Origin: Carcharhinus amblyrhynchos
Taxonomy: Eukaryota
Reading direction: 5' to 3'
DNA: 64,000 bases
NCBI GenBank assembly: GCA_965287045.1
Contig: OZ336873.1
Coordinates: 56,358,001 to 56,422,000 of the forward strand
The translations under genes and the position numbers were made by a program. Shown here piece by piece: positions 297 to 63,756 of the stretch. How positions within the stretch are numbered: position 1 is the first letter of the stretch; the number at the start of each line of letters is the position of its first letter. Below the pieces are notes generated by a model, which saw only the letters and a program-made list of their open reading frames with translations, was not told where the DNA came from and did not search any database.

Positions 297-453
297 GATG
301 CGGAGATGCCAGCGTTGGACTGGGGTGGGCGCAGTAAGAGGTCTTACAGCGCCAGGTTAAAAGTTCGCCTGATGCAGGCACAGCGTCCCCAAACTTCGTG
401 ATTCCAAACAAAAACCCTGTTGGACTTTAACCTGGTGTTGTGAGACCTCTTAC
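297..453 (-). mobile_element. Short palindromic Penelope-type non-autonomous element with 13-bp target-site duplication, in an intron of gene A
   Basis: TGAGACAAAACAA at 284-296 and 454-466. Internal inverted repeat gtaagaggtcttacagcgccaggttaaa / tttaacctggtgttgtgagacctcttac. Decayed hammerhead core (ctgatgc...). Same family as 42516-42738, opposite orientation. Confidence 0.75.
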
Positions 454-575: not shown

Positions 576-619
576 CAGCTCCTGGCTCCGGTTCCCTCCT
601 GTTACACGTCCGTCTTTAC
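576..619 (-). CDS. Gene A cytoplasmic exon (GKDGRVTGGNRSQEL)
   Basis: ttccag| acceptor and |gtaag donor on minus strand. 44 nt, phase 1 in and phase 0 out, in frame with the TM exon, no stop. Confidence 0.75.
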
Positions 620-1339: not shown

Positions 1340-1453
1340 CTTCATTCTTTAGCACTTGTTTCCGCCTCCTAATTACGATCGCAAGCACGAGGAACGACAA
1401 TCCAACCAGCGCACACACTGGAATCGAATAGTAATGTAATTTTGGGACATTTT
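1340..1453 (-). CDS. Gene A transmembrane exon (ENVPKLHYYSIPVCALVGLSFLVLAIVIRRRKQVLKNE)
   Basis: cttgcag| acceptor, G|gtaag donor, 114 nt phase 1-1. Hydrophobic ~20-aa stretch with no charged residue, followed by an RRRK stop-transfer signal. Confidence 0.88.
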
Positions 1454-3019: not shown

Positions 3020-3331
3020 CTTGGTTAGGTTGAGAAATCGTGAACGCCACAATAGCCGGAGTCTTGAGGGTGACATGAGATACCAGGCATGTATAATTGA
3101 CGTCTCTCGGTACAGGCTGATTCTCAAGCAAAGTGCTGGAAACTTCATACAGTCCGTCTCTGTTCTGCGTTTTATTGGTGTGTATTCCTGATGCAGTTTC
3201 GACGCCATTTTTATACCAAGTGAGGGTGTAATTTTCCGGATAAAATGCAGCCGTTTCACAGACGAGGATCAGAGGTGCAGGCGAATTCCCTTCCGTTGTC
3301 CTGGAGAAAAGATTCAGTGGGGTTGGGGCCA
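3020..3331 (-). CDS. Gene A Ig C1-set exon
   Basis: ctccgcag| acceptor, G|gtagg donor, 312 nt. VAPTPL...LVCETAAFYPENYTLTWYKNG...DGLYEVSSTL...YTCLVSHVTL contains the C1-set motifs CxxxxFYP, W and YxCxVxH. Confidence 0.93.
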
Positions 3332-4345
3332 CTGCGGAGCAGAAAGTGAACAAACTACTTTGCACGGTTTGGAAAACATAAATATACGTCTGACGTTCGG
3401 TTAATATTCTTACTCACTGGCAATTCCTATTTCCTGCATTTGAATATTACACACAAGATCAGTATAGATCTAATCCATATAAAGACCGGCATTCGATCAA
3501 TTCCAATATTTTTTGAATTCCCTGTCGGATAAGGTGAAGTGATTTGCTAATCAACGTTCTGTTTAAAGCGGCTAGAGAATTAAATCCTGATGAGACAGTC
3601 GTCTCGCTGAGTTCTTACGTGTTTAATGTACAATGACATAACAGAGAGTGACGAATAATATTTATATTATTGATGATGAAATGAGCGTTTTAATGCTCCT
3701 TTAAAGCCGCAGGTTGATATTTGATTAAATAAATTACTTTCAATTGAATGGAGAAGTTTCACCAACACGGTCTCTCTGTTAAATTATAGGCAAAATGCAG
3801 ATGCTGGAATCTGCAAAAGCCTCTCTGTGTTGTTTATTTATTTGAAAATTAGTGAACTGGCAGCCACGTATGTCGGAAACTCCAATCTGTTGAGTAAATC
3901 GATTTTGTCAACAGTTAAACATTGAGTATTTGAATACGCGCGGTATCGTACTTTGAAATTTACTTGAAGGAATACTGATATTCATAGACTATTAAAACTA
4001 AGCCAAAAGCTTTGTATATTTATCGTGGGAATGGCCCAGTAGTATAAAAGATTTTCAGTTAATTTTACTTTAGGAATTCATTCAGAATGCCACCAGTGTA
4101 AATCTGGTGCATGAATTGGCTTTATAGTTGTGATGTGTTTGATAAACATCACTAATATATTCGGTATACTCTGAGTGGCATTGTAGGTATAATTAGCATT
4201 TTTAATGCAGAGGACACGAATATACAACTACCTTATCGCGAAATATGTCCGTAGACATGATTTCACTGACAAAAAGTATGCACATCCCCGATTGTTGTGT
4301 TTGATATAATATGGCGATCTCCCTCGCCCTGTATTTCAATCTTAC

Positions 4346-4666
4346 CATGTACAGTTAGATTCGATCCGGTTCCATTTCGTTGACCTACTCCCTGACAGAT
4401 CACCGTACAGTGATAGATTCCAGAGTCTTGAAATGTCACATTTATTAAGCGAAAGAAACCGCTCACTTTATTTGCCATACCAAATATTTTTCTCTTGTCT
4501 GGGCTTGAATGCAGGAATTGGTTCTCACCATGTTTCCACCATAATACCCGTACCCAGGATTGGGATGGAAAAATGGGGAATATGCAGTAGAAGGTGATGT
4601 TTTCCCCTCTGGATACAATCGTTTCGACTGGTGCTTGAGACACACTGAACGAAGTGTCGTCCGCAG
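4346..4666 (-). CDS. Gene A Ig V-set exon with germline-joined J-like G strand
   Basis: ctgacag| acceptor, G|gtaag donor, 321 nt. VSQAP...GENITFYC...WWK...DSGIYHC...NGTGSNLTVH. Confidence 0.93.
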
Positions 4667-4820: not shown

Positions 4821-4875
4821 CTGTATGAATAATTCCTCGGAGGATCAAGCACAGAAGTACCATGATCGTTGTCAT
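4821..4875 (-). CDS. Gene A leader exon (MTTIMVLLCLILRGIIHT)
   Basis: ATG at 4875-4873, hydrophobic signal peptide, 55 nt ending in phase 1 at acag|gttct. Same length as the gene B leader exon. Confidence 0.85.
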
Positions 4876-4949: not shown

Positions 4950-5110
4950 TTTTCCTTCAGAGACGTCGCAGTGACGTTTAACATCCGGGAAGTGAGGTTT
5001 CAAAAACTACGCTTCCATTTTCAAGTGAGATTTTCTCATTTTTGCAACTACTTAGTTTCCTGGAATTACATGTTTTACTGGCAGCACAAAGCAAGGGGAA
5101 TTTAGATTTT
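4950..5110 (-). promoter_or_regulatory. Putative proximal promoter of gene A (ETS/GAS-like and CRE-like motifs)
   Basis: ACTTCCCGGA on the minus strand at 4984-4993 is identical to 36941-36950 upstream of gene B. TTCCTGGAA GAS palindrome at ~5057. TGACGT half-site at ~4972. Confidence 0.45.
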
Positions 5111-36899: not shown

Positions 36900-37115
36900 T
36901 TTTCGCACGGAAACTTCGAACGCTTAGGAGGAGACCTCCAACTTCCCGGACTCTTACCATGACTGACCACAATACACAACTTTAGCCATGTGACATCTCG
37001 TGTCATGGTCACACATTCCGTTTCTTTGTACATGAAATCGATTTCTTTGCCAAATCATTCAAGGCATCGTTGCTATTTGCTGCGAGTTGCAAACTTTTAT
37101 TCTTCAATTTACAGC
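36900..37115 (+). promoter_or_regulatory. Putative proximal promoter of gene B
   Basis: ACTTCCCGGA at 36941-36950 (shared with gene A); RUNX-type ACCACA at ~36966. Confidence 0.45.
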
Positions 37116-37170
37116 ATGTCGCTGAAAACTGCAGTTCAGTGTATGGTTCTTCTGTGGATGGTCTGGACAG
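37116..37170 (+). CDS. Gene B leader exon (MSLKTAVQCMVLLWMVWT)
   Basis: ATG 37116, signal-peptide-like, 55 nt, phase-1 donor acag|gtact. Confidence 0.85.
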
Positions 37171-37369: not shown

Positions 37370-37675
37370 GTGTGAAAATAACGTGGAGCAAAGTGGATCA
37401 GTTCCCTAAACATTTGACGGTTGCTAGGGGTGACAATGTTTCCATGTTCTGCACATTTCCCATGCTTGAAAGCGCTCCTGAAGTTTCTTGGTGGAAACGG
37501 GGCGAGGAATCGTTTCTGGAACCAGACAACAGAAAGAAAATTTATCTAAAGAAAGGCAGTAGTTCATTTGAAGTTCTGAATGCGAGTGTTGCAGACTCTG
37601 GAATGTACCACTGCTCAGTAAAACATCAACATAATAAGATTGGGGATGGAAGTGGCTCCCGGCTCACCGTGTGTG
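37370..37675 (+). CDS. Gene B Ig V-set exon with germline-joined J-like G strand
   Basis: tttttatag| acceptor, G|gtaag donor, 306 nt. VDQFP...GDNVSMFC...WWK...DSGMYHC...GDGSGSRLTVC. Confidence 0.93.
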
Positions 37676-39806: not shown

Positions 39807-40103
39807 TTCCCCCAGCCCCCCTGAAACTCGTTCAGGTTGAAGGGTTTTCAGCGACTTCTCTGAGGTTCGAGTGTAAAACGGCTGCCTTTTATCCAGAGGA
39901 TTTAAAAATCTCTTGGCTCCGAGATGGTGTGGAAATTCTGGCCGGAATACAAACTGTGAGAACCAAGACAGAGGATGGTCTTTTTGAGGTCACCAGTTCT
40001 TTGGAACAAGCACAACCTGTCCCGAACCGAATAGTTTATACATGCCTGGCATCTCACATTTCCCTTAAGGTGCCCGCCAGTGTCAGCTATATCGCCATTC
40101 AAG
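39807..40103 (+). CDS. Gene B Ig C1-set exon
   Basis: ttaaag| acceptor, G|gtaag donor, 297 nt. VPPAPL...CKTAAFYPEDLKISWLRDG...DGLFEVTSSL...YTCLASH. Confidence 0.93.
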
Positions 40104-41294
40104 GTAAGATTGGGCACATTGCAGCAGCGAGTGATGCGTTCGAACTATAGTTATTTATTAAACATTTAGCAGGGCAGCTGTTCAAACACAAAGTTGTAGG
40201 GTGAGTGTGGACATTCTTTAATGCCAATGCCATATCAATGGAAATGAATTAAAATATCTAAGATGGTTTGTAACTGCAGGAGAGGGAATGTTTCCCTAAA
40301 AAGGTCTGAAACGGGAGGCCGATGTGGGAGCTGCTCAAAACTGAAAGCTTACTTGTTATCAAATTCTTGCCAAATGAAATGAACCTACACATGAAATGGA
40401 TCAGTTTAGTCAATCTCCCTTTAATTGGGCAATTCCTGCGTGGAACTTTAGTCAACGATATCGTTCAAGGACATTTCCTCCATGATCCAGATCCTTTTGA
40501 CCATCATGAAACTATTTCTCTTTGATCCAAAGGCTTAACTTCGGGGGGAAAAATGCTCTTCCTGTATTTACATCATTCGTTGAATTACTCTCCTCATATT
40601 TCCACTCAAAATGCGAAGGCATTAAAAATGCTTCCAAAACTCCTCTGGTTGCAATTTTGGTTGCGCACCCTTTACTCCAATAAACAAGACTCTATTACAG
40701 TTATTAGCACTGTGGGTGTAAACTTTAAAAATGAGGAAACTACGGTGCAAATACAGAGAGTTTGGCGCTTGATCGGTGTTCTGGTGAGAGTGCATCTGCC
40801 ATGAGAGAAACGAGCCAAGGTACCAAACTGAATATCAGAATCCGAAAGCATAACTTTCGTACTAATGAAGTTAGCCATGCGGGAAGATCACAACCTGATC
40901 GTCAGCGAGTTAAATTGTGATCGCTGAGGGCAGTGTTGTGTGGTCGAGTAGTACTGTCCCACGTTATTATTATAGGGTCCAGAGGGGCATTTCTGTTTTT
41001 TCCTACAGAGCCAAAAATATTTTTAAGCCATTTGTTTGGCGCCGGCACCAAGCACCAGGCTGTCTTGGAAGATGGAGTGCATTATGTTAAAATGTTCACA
41101 TGGCGCTCAATTTGCGGAGCGTCCTTTGGGGGTATTTTCTGTTCGATTGACTTTGGAAATTTAATATCGGTCACAAAGTTTGGAGCAGCAATTTTATGGA
41201 CCTCTTTCATGTCTAGAAGCCAGTACTACTTGGTTTCATTCAATAATTCGTATGTACAGAAAATTTATGTGCATATTTTAATCTTGCATTGTAG

Positions 41295-41398
41295 ATAACA
41301 GTTTCCGGAACGTGATGATTTCACGACATGTTCTGAGTTTTTTGATAATTCTTGGATTGCTGGCTATAATTGTGGACCATGTTATATATTTCAATTGA
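41295..41398 (+). CDS. Gene B TM/terminal coding exon (DNSFRNVMISRHVLSFLIILGLLAIIVDHVIYFN*)
   Basis: ttgcattgtag| acceptor in phase 1 with the C1 exon. Hydrophobic core preceded by Arg. TGA at 41396-41398, then ag|gtaagg donor at 41401. Not in the ORF track. Confidence 0.8.
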
Positions 41399-41599
41399 AG
41401 GTAAGGGGACACTGTTTTAATTCAGCAAACCACGTTCAAAGTATATACACGCAGTTAACACTGGTGGGCTGGAAATGGGAAATGTGCTTTTGTCCGTCGT
41501 TTCTCCGGTAATTTAAGAGTCACGGGTAGTGATATTAAATATTCCTATTAAGTAACTCACAATATAGAAGGCCACCACTTTTACCACGACGATGCTCAT

Positions 41600-42515: not shown

Positions 42516-42738
42516 TAAGAAGTATCACAACGCCAGGTTGAAGAACAGTAGGTTTATTTGGTACGAAACGCCACTAGCTTTCGGAGCGCTGCCCCTTCAT
42601 CAGGTGACTCACCTACTCACTCGCCTGACGAAGGCGCAGCGCTCCAAAAGCTTGTGGCGATTCCTACCAAATAAGCCTGTTGGACTTTAATCTGGTGTTG
42701 TGAGAATTCTTACTGTGTTTTCCCGACATCTCCACATC
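42516..42738 (+). mobile_element. Palindromic Penelope-type non-autonomous element with 12-bp TSD and two divergent hammerhead cores
   Basis: ATAAGTATCTGG at 42504-42515 and 42739-42750; ~95-bp imperfect inverted arms centred at ~42614. Confidence 0.85.
42571..42607 (-). ncRNA. Minimal type I hammerhead ribozyme (intact core)
   Basis: Minus strand reads UCAC-CUGAUGA-A-GGGGC-AGC-GCUCC-GAAA-GC-UA-GUGG: stem I UCAC/GUGG, 5-bp stem II, palindromic AGCU mini stem III. Confidence 0.7.
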
Positions 42739-56529: not shown

Positions 56530-58560
56530 TGCTAAATTGGAAAACTGAAATGGATGCAGGAAAGGCACGTGCCTGTTAGGAGGAAGGATGGGAAATGTAG
56601 GATTAGAGAGCCGTGGATTACTAGAGATACTGAGGACCTGGTCAGGAAGAAACGAGAAGCGTATGTTAGTCTAAGCAACTGGAAACGGAGACAGTGTTGG
56701 AGGAGTACAGAGAGAGTAGGAGGGATCTCAAAAGGGGAGTTAGGAGGGCAAAAAAAGGGCATGAAATGGCTTTGGCAGGTAGGATTAAGAAAAATCCAAA
56801 GGCGTTTTACTCCTATGTTAGGAACAAAAGGGTGGCTAGGAGAAAAATCGGTCCCCCCAGGGACAGACGTGGCGAATTGTGCTTAGAGGCAGAGGGAATG
56901 GGGAAGAACCTGAATGAATACTTTGAACAAAGAACAACCCAGCACGGGAAACAGGCCCTTCGGCCCAACGAAGGTCGGTATTCATGAAGGAGAGGGGCTT
57001 GATGTCTGGTACGGTCTTCGAGGGAGCGGTAGACCAATTGAAGGAACTATCGATTACGAGGGAAGAAGTGTTAGGGCTTTTAGGTAGCATTAAAACTGAT
57101 AAATCTCCAGGGCCTGATGGCAATTAACCTAGCCTGCTTAGGGAGGCGAGAGATGAAATTGCTGGGGCTCTGACGCAAATCTTTGTCTCTTCTTTGGACA
57201 CAGGTGAGGTCCCAGAGGACTGGAGGATAGCGAACGTGGTACCGTTGTTTAAAATGGGTAGGAGGGATAACCCAGGTAACTATAGGCCGGTGAGTTTGAC
57301 GTCAGTGGTAGGCAAGTTGATGGAGAGGATTCCTAGGGATAGGATATATGAGCACTTAGACCGTTGCAATCTGATTAAGGATAGGCAGCATGGCTTTTAA
57401 AGGGGAAGTCTTGCCTTACGAATCTGGTAGAATTTTTTGAGGAGGTGATAAAAACGGTCGACGAAGGACGAGCCGTTGATGTCGTCTATATGGATTTCAG
57501 TAAGGCGTTTGACAAAGTCCCTCAGGATAGGTTGGTAGAAAAAATTAAGGCTCATGGAATACAAGGCCAGGTATCTAGATGGTTTGAGAACTGGCTTGCT
57601 AAGAGGAGGCAAAGAGTAGTAGTGGAGGGGTCCTTTTCTAGCTGGAGATCTGTCAGTAGTGGTGTGCTGCAGGGCTCAGTACTGGGACCTCTTCTCTTTG
57701 TAGTATATATAAATGACTTGGAAGAGGGAGTAAGTGGTGTGATCAGCAAATTTGCAGATGACACTAAGATGGCTGGATTGGCGGGCAGTGAGGAGCAGTA
57801 TCTGGCAATACAACGGGATATTGATAGGCTGGTATATTGGGCAGATATATGGCAACTGCAGTTTAATCCTGATAAATGTGAGGTGATGCATTTTGGCCGG
57901 AATAATGTAGGGGGAAGTTATAAATGGCAAGCCTATAAAGAGTATAGAAATGCAGCGAGACCTGGGGCTGCAAGTGCACATGTCTTTGAAGGTGGCAGTA
58001 CAAGTGGAGAAGGTTGTGAAGAAAACCTATGGTATGTTAGCCTTTATAGGAAGGGGTATAGAGTATAAGGGCTGGAGTCTAATGTTGCAGTTGTATAGAA
58101 TGTTGGTTAGGCCGCATTTAGAGTTCTGGTCACCTTACTACCGGAAGACGTGGAGACTCTGGAGAGAGATCAGAGGAGGTTTACCAGGATGTTGCCTGGT
58201 ATGGAAGGACTGGGTTATGAGGAAAGACTGAGCGAGTTGGGGCTGTTTTCCCTTGAAAGACGTCGACTGAGGGGGGATCTAATAGAGGTATATAAGATTA
58301 TGAAGGGTATAGATAGAGTAAACAGAGGTAAGCTATTTCCTATGTTAGAGACACACAGGTCGAGGGGCACGGGCTTAGGGTGAGGGGGGAGAGGTATAAC
58401 ACAGATATTAGAGGGAGGTTTTTCACACAGAGGGTAGTGGGGGTATGGAATGCTCTGCCAAGTGAGGTGGTGGAGACAGGCACGCGGGAGTTGTTTTAGA
58501 GTAACTTAGACAAGCACATGAGTTGGTTGGAGATGGGAGGATATAGGAGATTGTTTTAAA
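56530..58560 (+). mobile_element. CR1 LINE ORF2 (same subfamily as 61295-64000), 5'-truncated
   Basis: QERHVPVRRKDGK, WRIANVVPLFK, DFSKAFDKVP, FADDTK and RRLRGDLIEVYK. Confidence 0.93.
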
Positions 58561-60398: not shown

Positions 60399-61609
60399 AA
60401 ACATACAGTGCAGTTCTTAATGAAGAGCAAGTTCTTGAATTCACTTTTATGTATCAACAATTGACGCTGGGCAACATGTTTTTGGCGAGTCAGTGAATGA
60501 TGAATGTGTAGAATCAGGCTATTTCAGTAAACGAATTTCCCAAATCCTTTGATCTCAGAAGCTGTGAATAATTGATTGATTTTTTTTGTTAAACACCAAG
60601 AAATATTTTCTGAACCACGTGCTTCAGAAGAAATCTCTTACCACATGATCTGTCGGAACAATGTGCCTGGGATTATGGGAATTTATTCCCTTAGAGCATT
60701 GCGAATCTTTGGAATATTCAACCCCCGAGAGCAGTGGAGGCTAAGTCATTGAATTACTGAATTGGACAAATTTCGACCTATCGGGGAGACAATGGTCGTG
60801 GAACAATGTTAAGAACGTGGAGTTGAGGTCAAGGTCCATGGCCTTATTGCATGAAGCAGCAACAGAATTGCACGTAGCTACAATGTATAACCTGATGTAT
60901 TGGCACTTCAGACCACTGAATAATTCCCTGGATGCTAATCAACGGTTAGTGAAGGCAATTGAAGTAACTCTTGTTACAAACCCCCGTTTTTAAAATCAAA
61001 ACTTCAATGGTTCTTGCCTACATGGTTGCAACACGTAACTCAGTCAAACACAATTGAACAAAATGGATAACACAATAACAGTGAAATCTCAAAATTGCTG
61101 TGAGGCCAAACATGTCTCCTTCGCACTGCCGATATTACTTTCAATTCTGCTGCCATTTTTGTCTGGAAAGATGATTCGGTGTTTTAAAAAAATCGGCACA
61201 TGACAGAAGCAAATTACGGAATTTACATTAATTTTATGATTCTTTAATAGGTTGTATACTTGAGTTATTCCCGTGAGGAAAAATAATGAATTTCAGCTCA
61301 CTGTTCTCTGGAGCTGTGATTTCGACGAGTGGCTGCCTTTTGGTGAGTGTGCTGCATTGTAATTACTGCATTTTGACTTACTTCTAGTTCGGGAGGGTTT
61401 TTGTTTATTTTGGCGCTCCGTAGCGGGAGATAGGCGCGGGGGCTGCTGGGAAGGGAGCGCGGGAGTATAAAAAGGCCAAGGTAGATAGCGGGCAGCGGAG
61501 TGAGGCGGGAAGCAGAGTGAGAGGTAAAAGGGCTTAAGCTCACTGGGCTTGGGCGAGCGTAGGCTCGGTAACAGGAATTAATAGGACACCTTAAAAGGGG
61601 GCAAACATA

Positions 61610-62518
61610 ATGGCAGGGCCTAGGGTTACACGTGTTCACTGTGTTCGTTGTCATATGTGGACATTTCTGGAGCCAGCACATCTCCCGAAAGCCCACATAT
61701 GCAGGAAATGTCTAGAGGTGCAGCGATTAAGGGCCTGGGTGAGGCAGCTGGAACTGAGGCTGGAGGATATGTTTTTAGTTAGGGAAAATGAGGAAATAAT
61801 GGATAGGGACAGTAACACTGAGCAGATACCAGGACCTAGGAGGAGAGATGGATGGGTTACAGTTAGGAAGAGCAAAAAGAAAAGGAGTCATGGCACTAGG
61901 ACCGCCCTGGAGGAATTACCCCAGAATATCAAGGGTGGGGTGACAGCTGGGGTAGAGAAGGCAAGGGAGGGAGATCAGAATACCTCGGAGGAAGGGAAGA
62001 GTGCAGGGTGTGAGATAGTGGTGGGGGATGGGAAAGTCAAAGGGATTGACAGGTGGTTCTGTGGGCAAAAGTGGGACTCCAGGATGGTAGTCTGCCTCCC
62101 TGGAGCAGGGGTACAGGATGTTTCAGAAAGGGTAGAGGGAATTTTGAAGGGTGGAGGGACTGAGTCTGATGTGATTGTTCCTACATCCTTCTCTCCTACG
62201 TGCACTAAGTGCAGGGGGGACATACGTATGCAGTTCAGGGAGTTGGGGGCTAGGCTGAAATGTAGGGCCTCCAGGGTGGCGTTCTCTGGGCTGCTGCTGG
62301 TGCCTGGGGCTAGCAGGGCTAGAAATAATGAGATACTCCAACTAAATGCGTGGTTGAAGGATTGGTGTAGGGCAGAGGGTTTTAGATTCGTAGACCACTG
62401 GGAAGTCTTTATGAAAGAGGGGCAAATATACAAGAGGGATGGGGTACAGTTAACTGGGAAGGGCATGCATATCTTAGCTGGAAGGTTAGCTGGAGTGTTT
62501 CGGCAGGGTTTAAACTAA
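61610..62518 (+). CDS. CR1 ORF1 protein: CxxC...CxxC zinc finger, leucine zipper, SGNH-esterase-like domain
   Basis: CVRC...CRKC, LRAWVRQLELRL, VVGDG, CLPGAGVQDV, NAWLKDWC, FVDHW, YKRDGVQL. Confidence 0.88.
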   Translation: MAGPRVTRVHCVRCHMWTFLEPAHLPKAHICRKCLEVQRLRAWVRQLELRLEDMFLVRENEEIMDRDSNTEQIPGPRRRDGWVTVRKSKKKRSHGTRTALEELPQNIKGGVTAGVEKAREGDQNTSEEGKSAGCEIVVGDGKVKGIDRWFCGQKWDSRMVVCLPGAGVQDVSERVEGILKGGGTESDVIVPTSFSPTCTKCRGDIRMQFRELGARLKCRASRVAFSGLLLVPGASRARNNEILQLNAWLKDWCRAEGFRFVDHWEVFMKEGQIYKRDGVQLTGKGMHILAGRLAGVFRQGLN

Positions 62519-62538
62519 TATGGAGGGGGGGTGGGGAG

Positions 62539-63756
62539 GTGGACGGAACTGGGATTGGGGATAGGGTAAGCCCGGAGGGTAGGAAGAAGGATCGGATTGT
62601 TTCTGAGGGTCTTCAGTGCATGTGTTTCAGTGCTAGGAGTGTGACTGGCAAAACAGATGGACTGAAGGCATTAATGTTCGAAAGGAAGTTGGAAGTGGTG
62701 GCAGTGACAGAGACTTGGTTAAAGGAAGGGCAGGACTGGCAGTTGAATGTTCCTGGGTATAAGTGTTTCAGGCACGATAGGGGTGGGTCGCTGAGAGGTG
62801 GGGGAGTGGCGTTGTTAGTTAAGGATTGCATCATAGCAGTGCAGAGGGAGGGAGGTATAAAGAATATAGGAATCGAGTCGCTATGGGTGGAGTTGAGGAA
62901 TAGGAAGGGAGATGTTACTATGTTGGGTGTGTACTACAGACCGCCCAACAGCCCGAGGGCTGTGGAAGAAGGGATAAGCAGGGACATTCTAGATAAGTGC
63001 AGGAAGAATAGGGTGGTGGTAGTGGGAGATTTTAATCTCCCCGGGGTAGATTGGAAGGTGCCGAGATCAGAGGGTGCTGACGGGGAGGAATTTGTACAGT
63101 GTGTAATGGAAGGATCCCTGGAGCAGTATGTGGATAGCCCGACCAGAGAGGGGGCGAGACTGGACTTGGTTCTGGGGAATGAGCTTGGGCAGGTGGTTGA
63201 CGTTGAAGTAGGAGAGCATGTGGCTAACAGTGACCACAACTCTGTCTGGTTTAAGATATTAATGGATAAAGATGAAGCCTGTCCTAAGGGGAGGGTGTTA
63301 AACTGGGGGAGGGCTAGATACAACCGGATTAGGCAGGATCTTAAAGATACGGACTGGGGTAAGCTGTTTGATGGCAGGTCGACGCTGGGTATGTGGGAGT
63401 CTCTCAAGGGAAAACTAAAATCTTTGCAGGAAAGACATGTGCCGGTCAAGAGGAAGGATGCGAAGGGTAGGATTAGAGAGCTGTGGGTAACTAGGGATAT
63501 TGAGGACCTGGTCAGGAGGAAGAGGGAGGCGTACATTGGATCTAGGCATTTGAGGACAGAGATAGCATTAGAAGAATACAGAGAATGTAGGAGAGAACTT
63601 AAAAGGGGCATCAGAAAGGCAAAAAGGGGCCACGAAATGGCTTTGGCGGGTAGGATTAAGGAAAATCCTAAGGCATTTTACTCCTATGTTAGAAACAAAA
63701 CAGGGACAGAGGAGGGGAACTATGCTTGGAGCCTGGGGGAATGGGGGAGATCTTGA
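62539..63756 (+). pseudogene. CR1 ORF2 N-terminus (apurinic-like endonuclease), frameshifted near 63700
   Basis: VTETWL, RGGGVAL, YYRPP, VGDFN, LDLVL and SDH. A 28-nt deletion relative to the sister copy (56830-56857) shifts the frame. Confidence 0.88.

What the first reader, a model, noticed from the sequence alone, without database searches (positions are those of the whole stretch)
3020..4666. Antigen-receptor architecture without recombination: J-like strand encoded in the V exon
Seen: both V exons end in a GxGSxLTV strand (NGTGSNLTVH; GDGSGSRLTVC at ~37642-37675) directly before a phase-1 donor, with no heptamer at the V end, followed by one C1 domain and a TM. Established: V-J-C1-TM is the TCR chain plan, and C1 domains are largely limited to Ig, TCR, MHC, tapasin, SIRP and B7 relatives. 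Inference: candidates for descendants of the pre-RAG proto-antigen receptor in the oldest jawed-vertebrate lineage with adaptive immunity.
Basis: partly seen in the sequence, partly recalled or inferred. Interest (0 to 1): 0.7.

Follow-up and report, generated by a model that had tools for sequence, protein, structure and literature searches.

The report
Shark paired immune receptor genes
Two shark genes shaped like antibody or T-cell-receptor chains but fixed in the germline are most likely an off-switch and an on-switch receptor from a large, little-studied immune gene family, not a direct relic of the first antigen receptor.

Summary
Gene A (the finding) has an uncharged TM and a multi-exon tail; its Mustelus orthologue (80% identical) carries ITIM and ITSM motifs. 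Gene B has an Arg...Asp TM and no tail. They belong to a large chondrichthyan multigene family (118 related proteins; 42 with ITIM-type tails) that databases mislabel SIRP-, tapasin- or MHC-II-like. The J strand is non-canonical (F/W in 0 of 77, Asn in 59), the V is short like VNAR/CD79b, and catshark and sawfish members lie off the MHC and antigen-receptor chromosomes. Trees make the family its own clade, weakly nearest NCR3-like VJ-C1 genes; a SIRP, Ig/UrIg or B7-H6 sister is not rejected, and TCR was not sampled. Best reading: paired inhibitory/activating innate receptors working like SIRPs or LILRs. Joined-VJ-C1 'proto-receptor' genes are an established idea with better candidates (UrIg, UrIg2); this family was not found described in the searchable literature.

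The parts
4821..4875 (-). Gene A leader exon (55 nt, phase 1 donor), 154-nt intron to the V exon
   Evidence: resembles leaders of Heptranchias/Heterodontus family members
4346..4666 (-). Gene A V exon with joined J-like G strand (4373-4350), Asn sequon at the J-Phe position
   Evidence: model pLDDT 93
3020..3331 (-). Gene A C1-set exon
   Evidence: Pfam C1-set 44.5 bits; model matches C1 domains at Z about 13
1340..1453 (-). Gene A transmembrane exon, no charged residue in the hydrophobic core
   Evidence: 85% identical to Mustelus P0002 262-299
576..619 (-). Gene A first cytoplasmic exon; no stop codon, the tail continues outside the window
   Evidence: 80% identical to P0002 299-313, whose tail then carries LIYSRV and TEYAQL
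37116..37170 (+). Gene B leader exon (55 nt), 199-nt intron to the V exon
37370..37675 (+). Gene B V exon with joined J-like G strand (37648-37671) followed by an unpaired Cys
   Evidence: 42% identical to gene A V
39807..40103 (+). Gene B C1-set exon
   Evidence: Pfam C1-set 33.3 bits; 47% identical to gene A C1
41295..41400 (+). Gene B transmembrane exon: Arg at the outer edge, Asp-His at the inner edge, stop after a tail of about 5 residues
   Evidence: same TM type as catshark P0062 and P0013

Best explanation
Genes A and B are an inhibitory and an activating member of a large, clustered family of non-rearranging VJ-C1 paired receptors of cartilaginous fishes. The single short V domain binds a ligand; C1 is a spacer. 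On binding, gene A-type chains are phosphorylated on ITIM/ITSM tyrosines and recruit SHP-1/SHP-2-type phosphatases; gene B-type chains have no tail and pair through the TM arginine with an ITAM adaptor, most likely FcR-gamma or CD3-zeta. Diversity comes from gene duplication and divergence of germline loops, not from recombination. Shown: exon plan, motifs, family breadth, two TM/tail classes. Inferred: gene A's own ITIMs (from its orthologue), adaptor, phosphatases, leukocyte (NK/myeloid) expression, and ligand (self protein for the inhibitory chains, pathogen decoys countered by the activating ones).
For: Orthologue P0002 is 79.8% identical over 272 aa and ends in ITIM + ITSM. Of 205 stored proteins 118 score 97 bits or more on family domain profiles, the next 59; of these 42 have ITIM/ITSM-type tails, 9 rows (6 genes) an Arg...(D/E)H TM, 6 another Arg TM, 17 a TM without motif, 44 no called TM. 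Many tails hold four Tyr motifs spaced 22-23/14/23. Named members come from 10 species of chimaera, sharks and rays, with several paralogues on one contig length per species. PMC6557307 (passages): FcR-gamma-associating TMs have an N-terminal Arg and acidic residues at the C-end; PMC3974974 (passages) defines paired receptors this way. FG-loop length is fixed (10 residues in 56 of 66). Domain number varies (V-V-C1, V-C1-C1, V only).
Against: Gene A's tyrosine motifs lie outside the window. No expression, ligand or signalling data. Gene B's Arg is not in the NxxR motif of the LRC-type TM. Only about a quarter of the 118 proteins carry a species name, many are fragments or isoforms. Short leader introns (154, 199 nt) and the rank of Ig-lambda/UrIg2 keep an antigen-receptor kinship open.
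Confidence: 0.8

Rival explanations
1. The family is the cartilaginous-fish SIRP lineage (one C1 instead of two), recognising CD47-like self. Compatible with the paired-receptor mechanism; it is a claim about membership.
For: SIRP-alpha is the top PDB hit for gene A's C1 and for profile A1 (V+C1 stretch 59.2 bits against 40.4 UrIg2 and 40.1 Ig-lambda); NCBI names most members after SIRP-alpha; four-tyrosine tail like SIRP-alpha (recalled); family+SIRP clade not rejected, p-AU 0.31.
Against: SIRP V domains score 21-26 bits on the family V profile against 53-56 for NCR3-like V; SIRP forms its own clade without the family in all four trees; V is 5-10 residues shorter; activating TM uses edge Arg, not the mid-membrane Lys of SIRP-beta (recalled); profile A7 ranks SIRP-alpha fifth.
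Confidence: 0.25
2. The family is the chondrichthyan expansion of the NCR3-like VJ-C1 lineage still present as single genes in coelacanth, frog and turtles (possibly the PRARP/VJC1 group). Also compatible with the best explanation.
For: These are the best non-family V matches (53-56 bits), have the same V-C1-TM plan and the same Cys-to-GxG spacing, are named NCR3-like, and are sister in the C1 tree (97/91) and the V+C1 tree (83/79).
Against: The sister grouping dissolves under the mixture model on C1 alone and is unresolved in the V tree; they were found by similarity to the query, which biases the sample; their TM has Lys; turtle/lizard multi-V receptors score as high on V.
Confidence: 0.35
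3. One reading: direct, little-changed descendants of the VJ-C1 gene that the RAG transposon invaded.
For: Joined VJ exon, C1, short leader intron; profile A7 best stretch is Ig-lambda V-C (74.8 bits), UrIg2 second; V model ties with VNAR, IgL and TCR V; family+UrIg+IgH not rejected, p-AU 0.15.
Against: No F/W at J118, Ser for Thr in 48 of 66; C1 falls on the non-Ig side of the Ig/UrIg branch (95/97 and 87/92); not on the MHC or antigen-receptor chromosomes; fast-diverging multigene family; UrIg/UrIg2 have the linkage (PMC12227049, sections 6, 7, 12).
Confidence: 0.1
4. Germline-rejoined shark Ig or TCR clusters, or NAR-TCR/IgNAR offshoots.
For: 18 of the 50 best structural rows for the V model are titled VNAR/IgNAR; VNAR is the best single-domain chain for the V profile (57.5 bits).
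Against: All those rows tie within 1 Z with NCAM, PD-1, CD79b and IgL; 16-25% identity; no octamer; no canonical J; fixed loop length from chimaera to rays; ITIM tails.
Confidence: 0.03
5. B7-family or tapasin-like ligands rather than receptors.
For: V+C1 plan; some NCBI names (CD276, tapasin-related); sister position not rejected, p-AU 0.22.
Against: B7-H6-like V lack GxG and form a separate clade (99/96, 100/98); V profile scores at most 21 bits; paired signalling ends.
Confidence: 0.03

Closest known systems
SIRP family (SIRP-alpha/beta)
   Same: [quoted passage not shown]
   Different: One C1 typically; V shorter; separate clade in four trees; edge-Arg TM; far larger expansion.
NCR3/NKp30 and NCR3-like VJ-C1 genes of coelacanth, frog, turtle
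   Same: Non-rearranging VJ exon, same FG-loop spacing, charged TM; nearest neighbours in two of four trees; NKp30 among top Foldseek rows (TM 0.78).
   Different: Shark NCR3 proper is on the MHC chromosome; NKp30 has no C1 and no inhibitory partner (recalled).
UrIg / UrIg2 (Flajnik 2023, 2025)
   Same: Elasmobranch, non-rearranging VJ in one exon plus C1 domains.
   Different: UrIg2 has nine C1 domains, Fc-like dimers, liver/gill expression, and lies in the antigen-receptor complex; its V is 18 residues longer between Trp and Cys and groups apart.
PRARP / VJC1 (Fu 2019; Ohta 2019)
   Same: Non-rearranging VJ(-C1) membrane proteins listed as precursor remnants; ITIM/ITSM tails (recalled).
   Different: Papers not held and no sequence identified here; canonical J and a gene pair rather than a large cluster (recalled); MHC-linked.
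NITR (teleost) and APAR (hagfish)
   Same: Multigene paired receptors with a joined J-like strand (NITR listed; rest recalled).
   Different: Second domain is I-set or absent, not C1 (recalled); no sequence comparison made.
LILR/PIR/CHIR/NKp46 activating TM class
   Same: Arg at the outer edge and acidic residue at the inner end.
   Different: No NxxR motif; ectodomain unrelated (C2-type in those families).

Membership tests
Paired immunoregulatory receptors (functional class) | Related ectodomains with ITIM-bearing and short-tailed charged-TM forms in one family | tested here: met
   42 ITIM/ITSM tails and 9 Arg...(D/E)H rows among 118; A and B 42-47% identical
Paired immunoregulatory receptors (functional class) | Phosphatase recruitment, adaptor pairing, leukocyte expression | not testable with these tools
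   needs cells or RNA
TCR / Ig chains (rearranging or germline-rejoined) | RSS-flanked V, D, J segments | tested here: not met
TCR / Ig chains (rearranging or germline-rejoined) | J consensus F/W-G-x-G-T | tested here: not met
   F/W 0 of 77, Asn 59 of 77; consensus as given
TCR / Ig chains (rearranging or germline-rejoined) | Short tail without ITIM, CD3/CD79-type TM | tested here: not met
TCR / Ig chains (rearranging or germline-rejoined) | V and C1 group with TCR/IgL in a tree | tested here: inconclusive
   no TCR and no IgL V sampled; C1 outside Ig/UrIg branch but AU p 0.15
UrIg/UrIg2 | Several C1 domains forming Fc-like units | tested here: not met
   one C1 per gene
UrIg/UrIg2 | Location in MHC or antigen-receptor complex | tested here: not met
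   catshark orthologues on a 198.8-Mb contig; chr13 annotation ends at 163.4 Mb; complex is on chr17; indirect, by size
SIRP | VJ + C1 ectodomain with inhibitory and activating forms | tested here: met
SIRP | V-C1-C1 architecture | tested here: not met
   V-C1 in both window genes; one relative has V-C1-C1 by near-exact duplication (P0037)
SIRP | Orthology by tree | tested here: inconclusive
   not grouped; sister not rejected p 0.31; nesting with pig SIRP rejected p 0.002
SIRP | SIRP-locus synteny; CD47 binding | not testable with these tools
   no genome held; no marker gene in the window
NCR3-like VJ-C1 / PRARP | Sister grouping by tree | tested here: inconclusive
   97/91, 83/79, unresolved; PRARP itself not identified
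NCR3 proper | MHC linkage, single V | tested here: not met
B7 / B7-H6-like | V without GxG strand, grouping with B7-H6-like V | tested here: not met

The most novel reading that the evidence does not exclude
This is the main, so far uncharacterised NK/myeloid paired-receptor system of cartilaginous fishes, kept from chimaeras to rays, and an independent surviving branch of the joined VJ-C1 stock from which SIRP, NKp30 and the rearranging receptors arose: a VNAR-like single V wired to ITIM/ITSM or FcR-gamma-type ends, showing that the stock signalled as paired receptors before RAG. Its inhibitory members would be the sharks' missing-self receptors for MHC class I or a CD47/B7-type ligand.
Probability: 0.25. 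Interest if true: 0.78.

Novelty: new variant of a known kind. Interest (0 to 1): 0.5.

Why it matters
Which receptors give shark NK and myeloid cells self-tolerance is open; a large inhibitory/activating cluster conserved across cartilaginous fishes is a direct candidate and can be tested with shark MHC class I, CD47 and B7-H6. It adds a further joined-VJ-C1 lineage to trees on antigen-receptor origins, and it corrects automatic names (SIRP-alpha-, tapasin-, CD276-, MHC-II-like) that hide one family under many labels. It does not by itself identify the RAG target.

Tried and rejected
Whole genome: none held, so no direct synteny and no view of gene A's last exons. Expression: no RNA holder listed; the four runs laid cover introns as evenly as exons, so they behave as genomic DNA and gave no splice joints among the rows shown. 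Complex of an A-type with a B-type ectodomain (P0002 52-262, P0062 20-222): no answer, score 0.02; neither for nor against. Fold searches do not separate families: top rows tie within 1 Z for V (14.0-14.9; 12.7-14.4) and C1; SIRP V is not among the listed V rows, which excludes nothing. PDB profile ranks are dominated by multi-domain chains, so two-domain TCR/IgL chains below the 60-row cut (65.8 bits) were not seen. ESM Atlas gave only generic V+C1 clusters at 0.94-0.95. Pfam scan of 141 of the 250 non-repeat ORFs of 62 aa or more (the 4 Ig ORFs were scanned) found only retroelement domains. Earlier findings: none. Literature: nine searches returned no description of this family; five accession numbers gave 0 papers; Flajnik 2023, Fu 2019 and Ohta 2019 are not held and could describe it. 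A possible hinge exon near 41011 was dropped because the catshark orthologue runs from C1 straight into the TM. The RSS-like motif at 379 was rejected as a repeat variant.

Full report
Observation. The window holds two genes, head to head and about 32 kb apart. Gene A (- strand) has a leader (4875-4821), V (4666-4346), C1 (3331-3020), TM (1453-1340) and a tail exon (619-576) that ends without a stop; gene B (+ strand) has a leader (37116-37170), V (37370-37675), C1 (39807-40103) and a TM exon (41295-41400) with a stop. Junctions are GT-AG and phase 1 around the Ig exons, and frames are open. Pfam calls V-set and C1-set above cut-off. Each V exon ends in GxGSxLTV just before the donor; the combined pattern occurs twice and never in 30 shuffles. 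There is no RSS at either V, no further family exon and no exact octamer upstream. Splicing is predicted, not shown by RNA.

Gene A's TM has no charged residue and is followed by cytoplasmic exons. Its closest relative, Mustelus asterias XP_078066559 (P0002; 79.8% over 272 aa), matches exon by exon through the first tail exon and then carries LIYSRV and TEYAQL, an ITIM and an ITSM-like motif. Gene A's own tyrosines lie beyond the window edge and are inferred. Gene B has an Arg at the outer edge of the TM, Asp-His at the inner edge and about five cytoplasmic residues; its catshark relative (P0062, 60%) has the same TM and a 12-residue tail. PMC6557307 (passages) and PMC2413239 (passages) describe FcR-gamma-associating TMs with an N-terminal Arg and acidic residues at the C-end; gene B fits this but lacks their NxxR motif.

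The family. Searches with P0002 returned 34 proteins and, in 1.84 billion representatives, 65 at E <= 1e-30. Of 205 proteins stored, 118 score at least 97 bits on the family V or C1 profile and the next scores 59. Those with species names come from Callorhinchus, Heptranchias, Heterodontus, Stegostoma, two Scyliorhinus, Mustelus, Mobula, Hemitrygon and Pristis, under names such as SIRP-alpha-, tapasin-, CD276- and MHC-II-like; paralogues of a species share one contig length. Most of the rest are unnamed. Of the 118, 42 have ITIM/ITSM-type tails, 9 rows (6 genes, four rows being isoforms) the Arg...(D/E)H TM, 6 another Arg TM, 17 a TM with neither, and 44 no called TM (mostly fragments). Long tails often hold four tyrosine motifs spaced 22-23, 14, 23, an arrangement I recall from SIRP-alpha. 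This is the definition of paired receptors (PMC3974974 passages).

The V domain is not an antigen-receptor V. Where Ig and TCR J have F/W (consensus quoted), the family has Asn in 59 of 77 and F/W in none, usually as a glycosylation sequon; Ser replaces Thr in 48 of 66, and the FG loop is 10 residues in 56 of 66. The loop is variable in sequence (2.8 bits against 2.1 overall) but not in length. Trp-to-Cys spacing is 39-49 (median 44) against 46-53 in SIRPs, 48-52 in NCR3-like V, 59 in an IgH V and 62 in a UrIg-like V (these last labels are my reading of unnamed proteins). The model (pLDDT 93) has no C'/C'' strands of three or more residues, and ties with VNAR, NCAM-1, CD79b, PD-1, NKp30, IgL and TCR V. 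A glycan at the position that forms the V-V interface suggests a V that binds alone; this is inference. The C1 model is a generic C1.

Affinity. Similarity ranks flip: profile A1 puts SIRP-alpha first, profile A7 puts an Ig-lambda V-C stretch and UrIg2 ahead of it. On the V profile NCR3-like VJ-C1 genes of turtle and coelacanth score 53-56 and reptile multi-V receptors 37-55, against 21-26 for SIRP, at most 21 for B7-H6-like and no hit for UrIg-like V. In trees the family is one clade (C1 99/94; 96/55; V+C1 98/96; V weak, with one long teleost branch inside). It is sister to the NCR3-like genes (97/91, bootstrap not settled; 83/79) but unresolved. Its C1 lies outside the Ig/UrIg branch (95/97; 87/92), though two IgH domains do too. 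AU tests on 27 rows x 211 columns do not reject a sister link to SIRP (p 0.31), UrIg+IgH (0.15), UrIg (0.23) or B7-H6-like (0.22); nesting with pig SIRP is rejected (0.002).

Synteny, indirect. Catshark relatives of both genes are on a 198,790,641-bp contig. In the supplement of PMC10751288 the catshark MHC chromosome 13 is annotated to 163.4 Mb, chr16 is 145.0 Mb and chr21 71.0 Mb; chr17, which holds the antigen-receptor complex, and chr25 are smaller if numbering follows size. Catshark chr4 is not excluded this way, but the sawfish member lies on a 53.95-Mb contig, shorter than sawfish chr3 (genes at 65.5 Mb) and chr12 (55.6 Mb). If the cluster is syntenic between the two species it is on none of the six MHC/antigen-receptor paralogon chromosomes listed.

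Comparison with what is known. Joined-VJ genes as remnants of the receptor precursor are an established theme: NKp30, PRARP, UrIg and tetrapod VJ-C1 genes (PMC10751288 passages); CD79, NITR, SIRP, CD8, NKp30, PRARP (PMC11599192 passage); UrIg2, linked to IgH and TCR alpha/delta, is the named candidate (PMC12227049 abstract, sections 6, 7 and most of 12). This family works like SIRP or LILR pairs, is not shown to be SIRP, and is not UrIg, NCR3 proper, B7 or a rejoined Ig/TCR. Nine searches found no description of it, but three key papers were not held, so it may be described there or in supplements I could not see.

Verdict. Real feature; interpretation partly supported. Most likely an inhibitory (A) and an activating (B) member of a chondrichthyan VJ-C1 paired-receptor cluster (0.8). 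New variant of a known kind; interest 0.5.

Noticed in passing
window 379-416 (+): Heptamer-like CACAGCG, 22-nt spacer and exact nonamer inside a very high-copy repeat in a tail intron of gene A; a second copy at 42621-42715 lacks it, so probably chance.
   Followed up: yes
window 41375-41400 (+): The end of gene B's TM exon reads like the catshark orthologue's last residues in another frame, giving a stop two bases before the donor; a one-base difference (allele or assembly error) that shortens an already short tail.
   Followed up: partly
window 37672-37674 (+): Unpaired Cys right after the G strand of gene B, present in 11 of 69 V domains counted; could form disulfide-linked dimers.
   Followed up: partly
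window 5229-5002 (-): The RefSeq models of P0002 and P0001 start in sequence resembling this upstream stretch (55% and 32%), not in the 55-nt leader exon; their N-termini are probably mis-predicted.
   Followed up: partly
window 4970-4995 and 36940-36970: CRE-like and ETS/PU.1-like motifs upstream of gene A, ETS- and RUNX-like upstream of gene B; no statistics.
   Followed up: no
window 57385-58065, 61595-63753 (+) and many fragments: Non-LTR retroelement remains: reverse transcriptase, endonuclease and GDSL-like ORF1; about 14% of the window repeats within itself.
   Followed up: no
P0149, P0166, P0205: NCR3-like V joined to a C1 and a Lys-bearing TM in turtles, coelacanth and a frog.
   Followed up: partly
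P0024-P0033: Turtle and lizard receptors with 3-5 tandem GxG-bearing V domains, in tyrosine-tailed and Arg-TM forms; another poorly named paired family.
   Followed up: partly
PMC10751288 supplement, reedfish chr12 7.3-12.5 Mb: Dense cluster of SIRP-like, tapasin-like, NCR3-like and killer-lectin-like genes; may be a ray-finned counterpart, sequences not compared.
   Followed up: no
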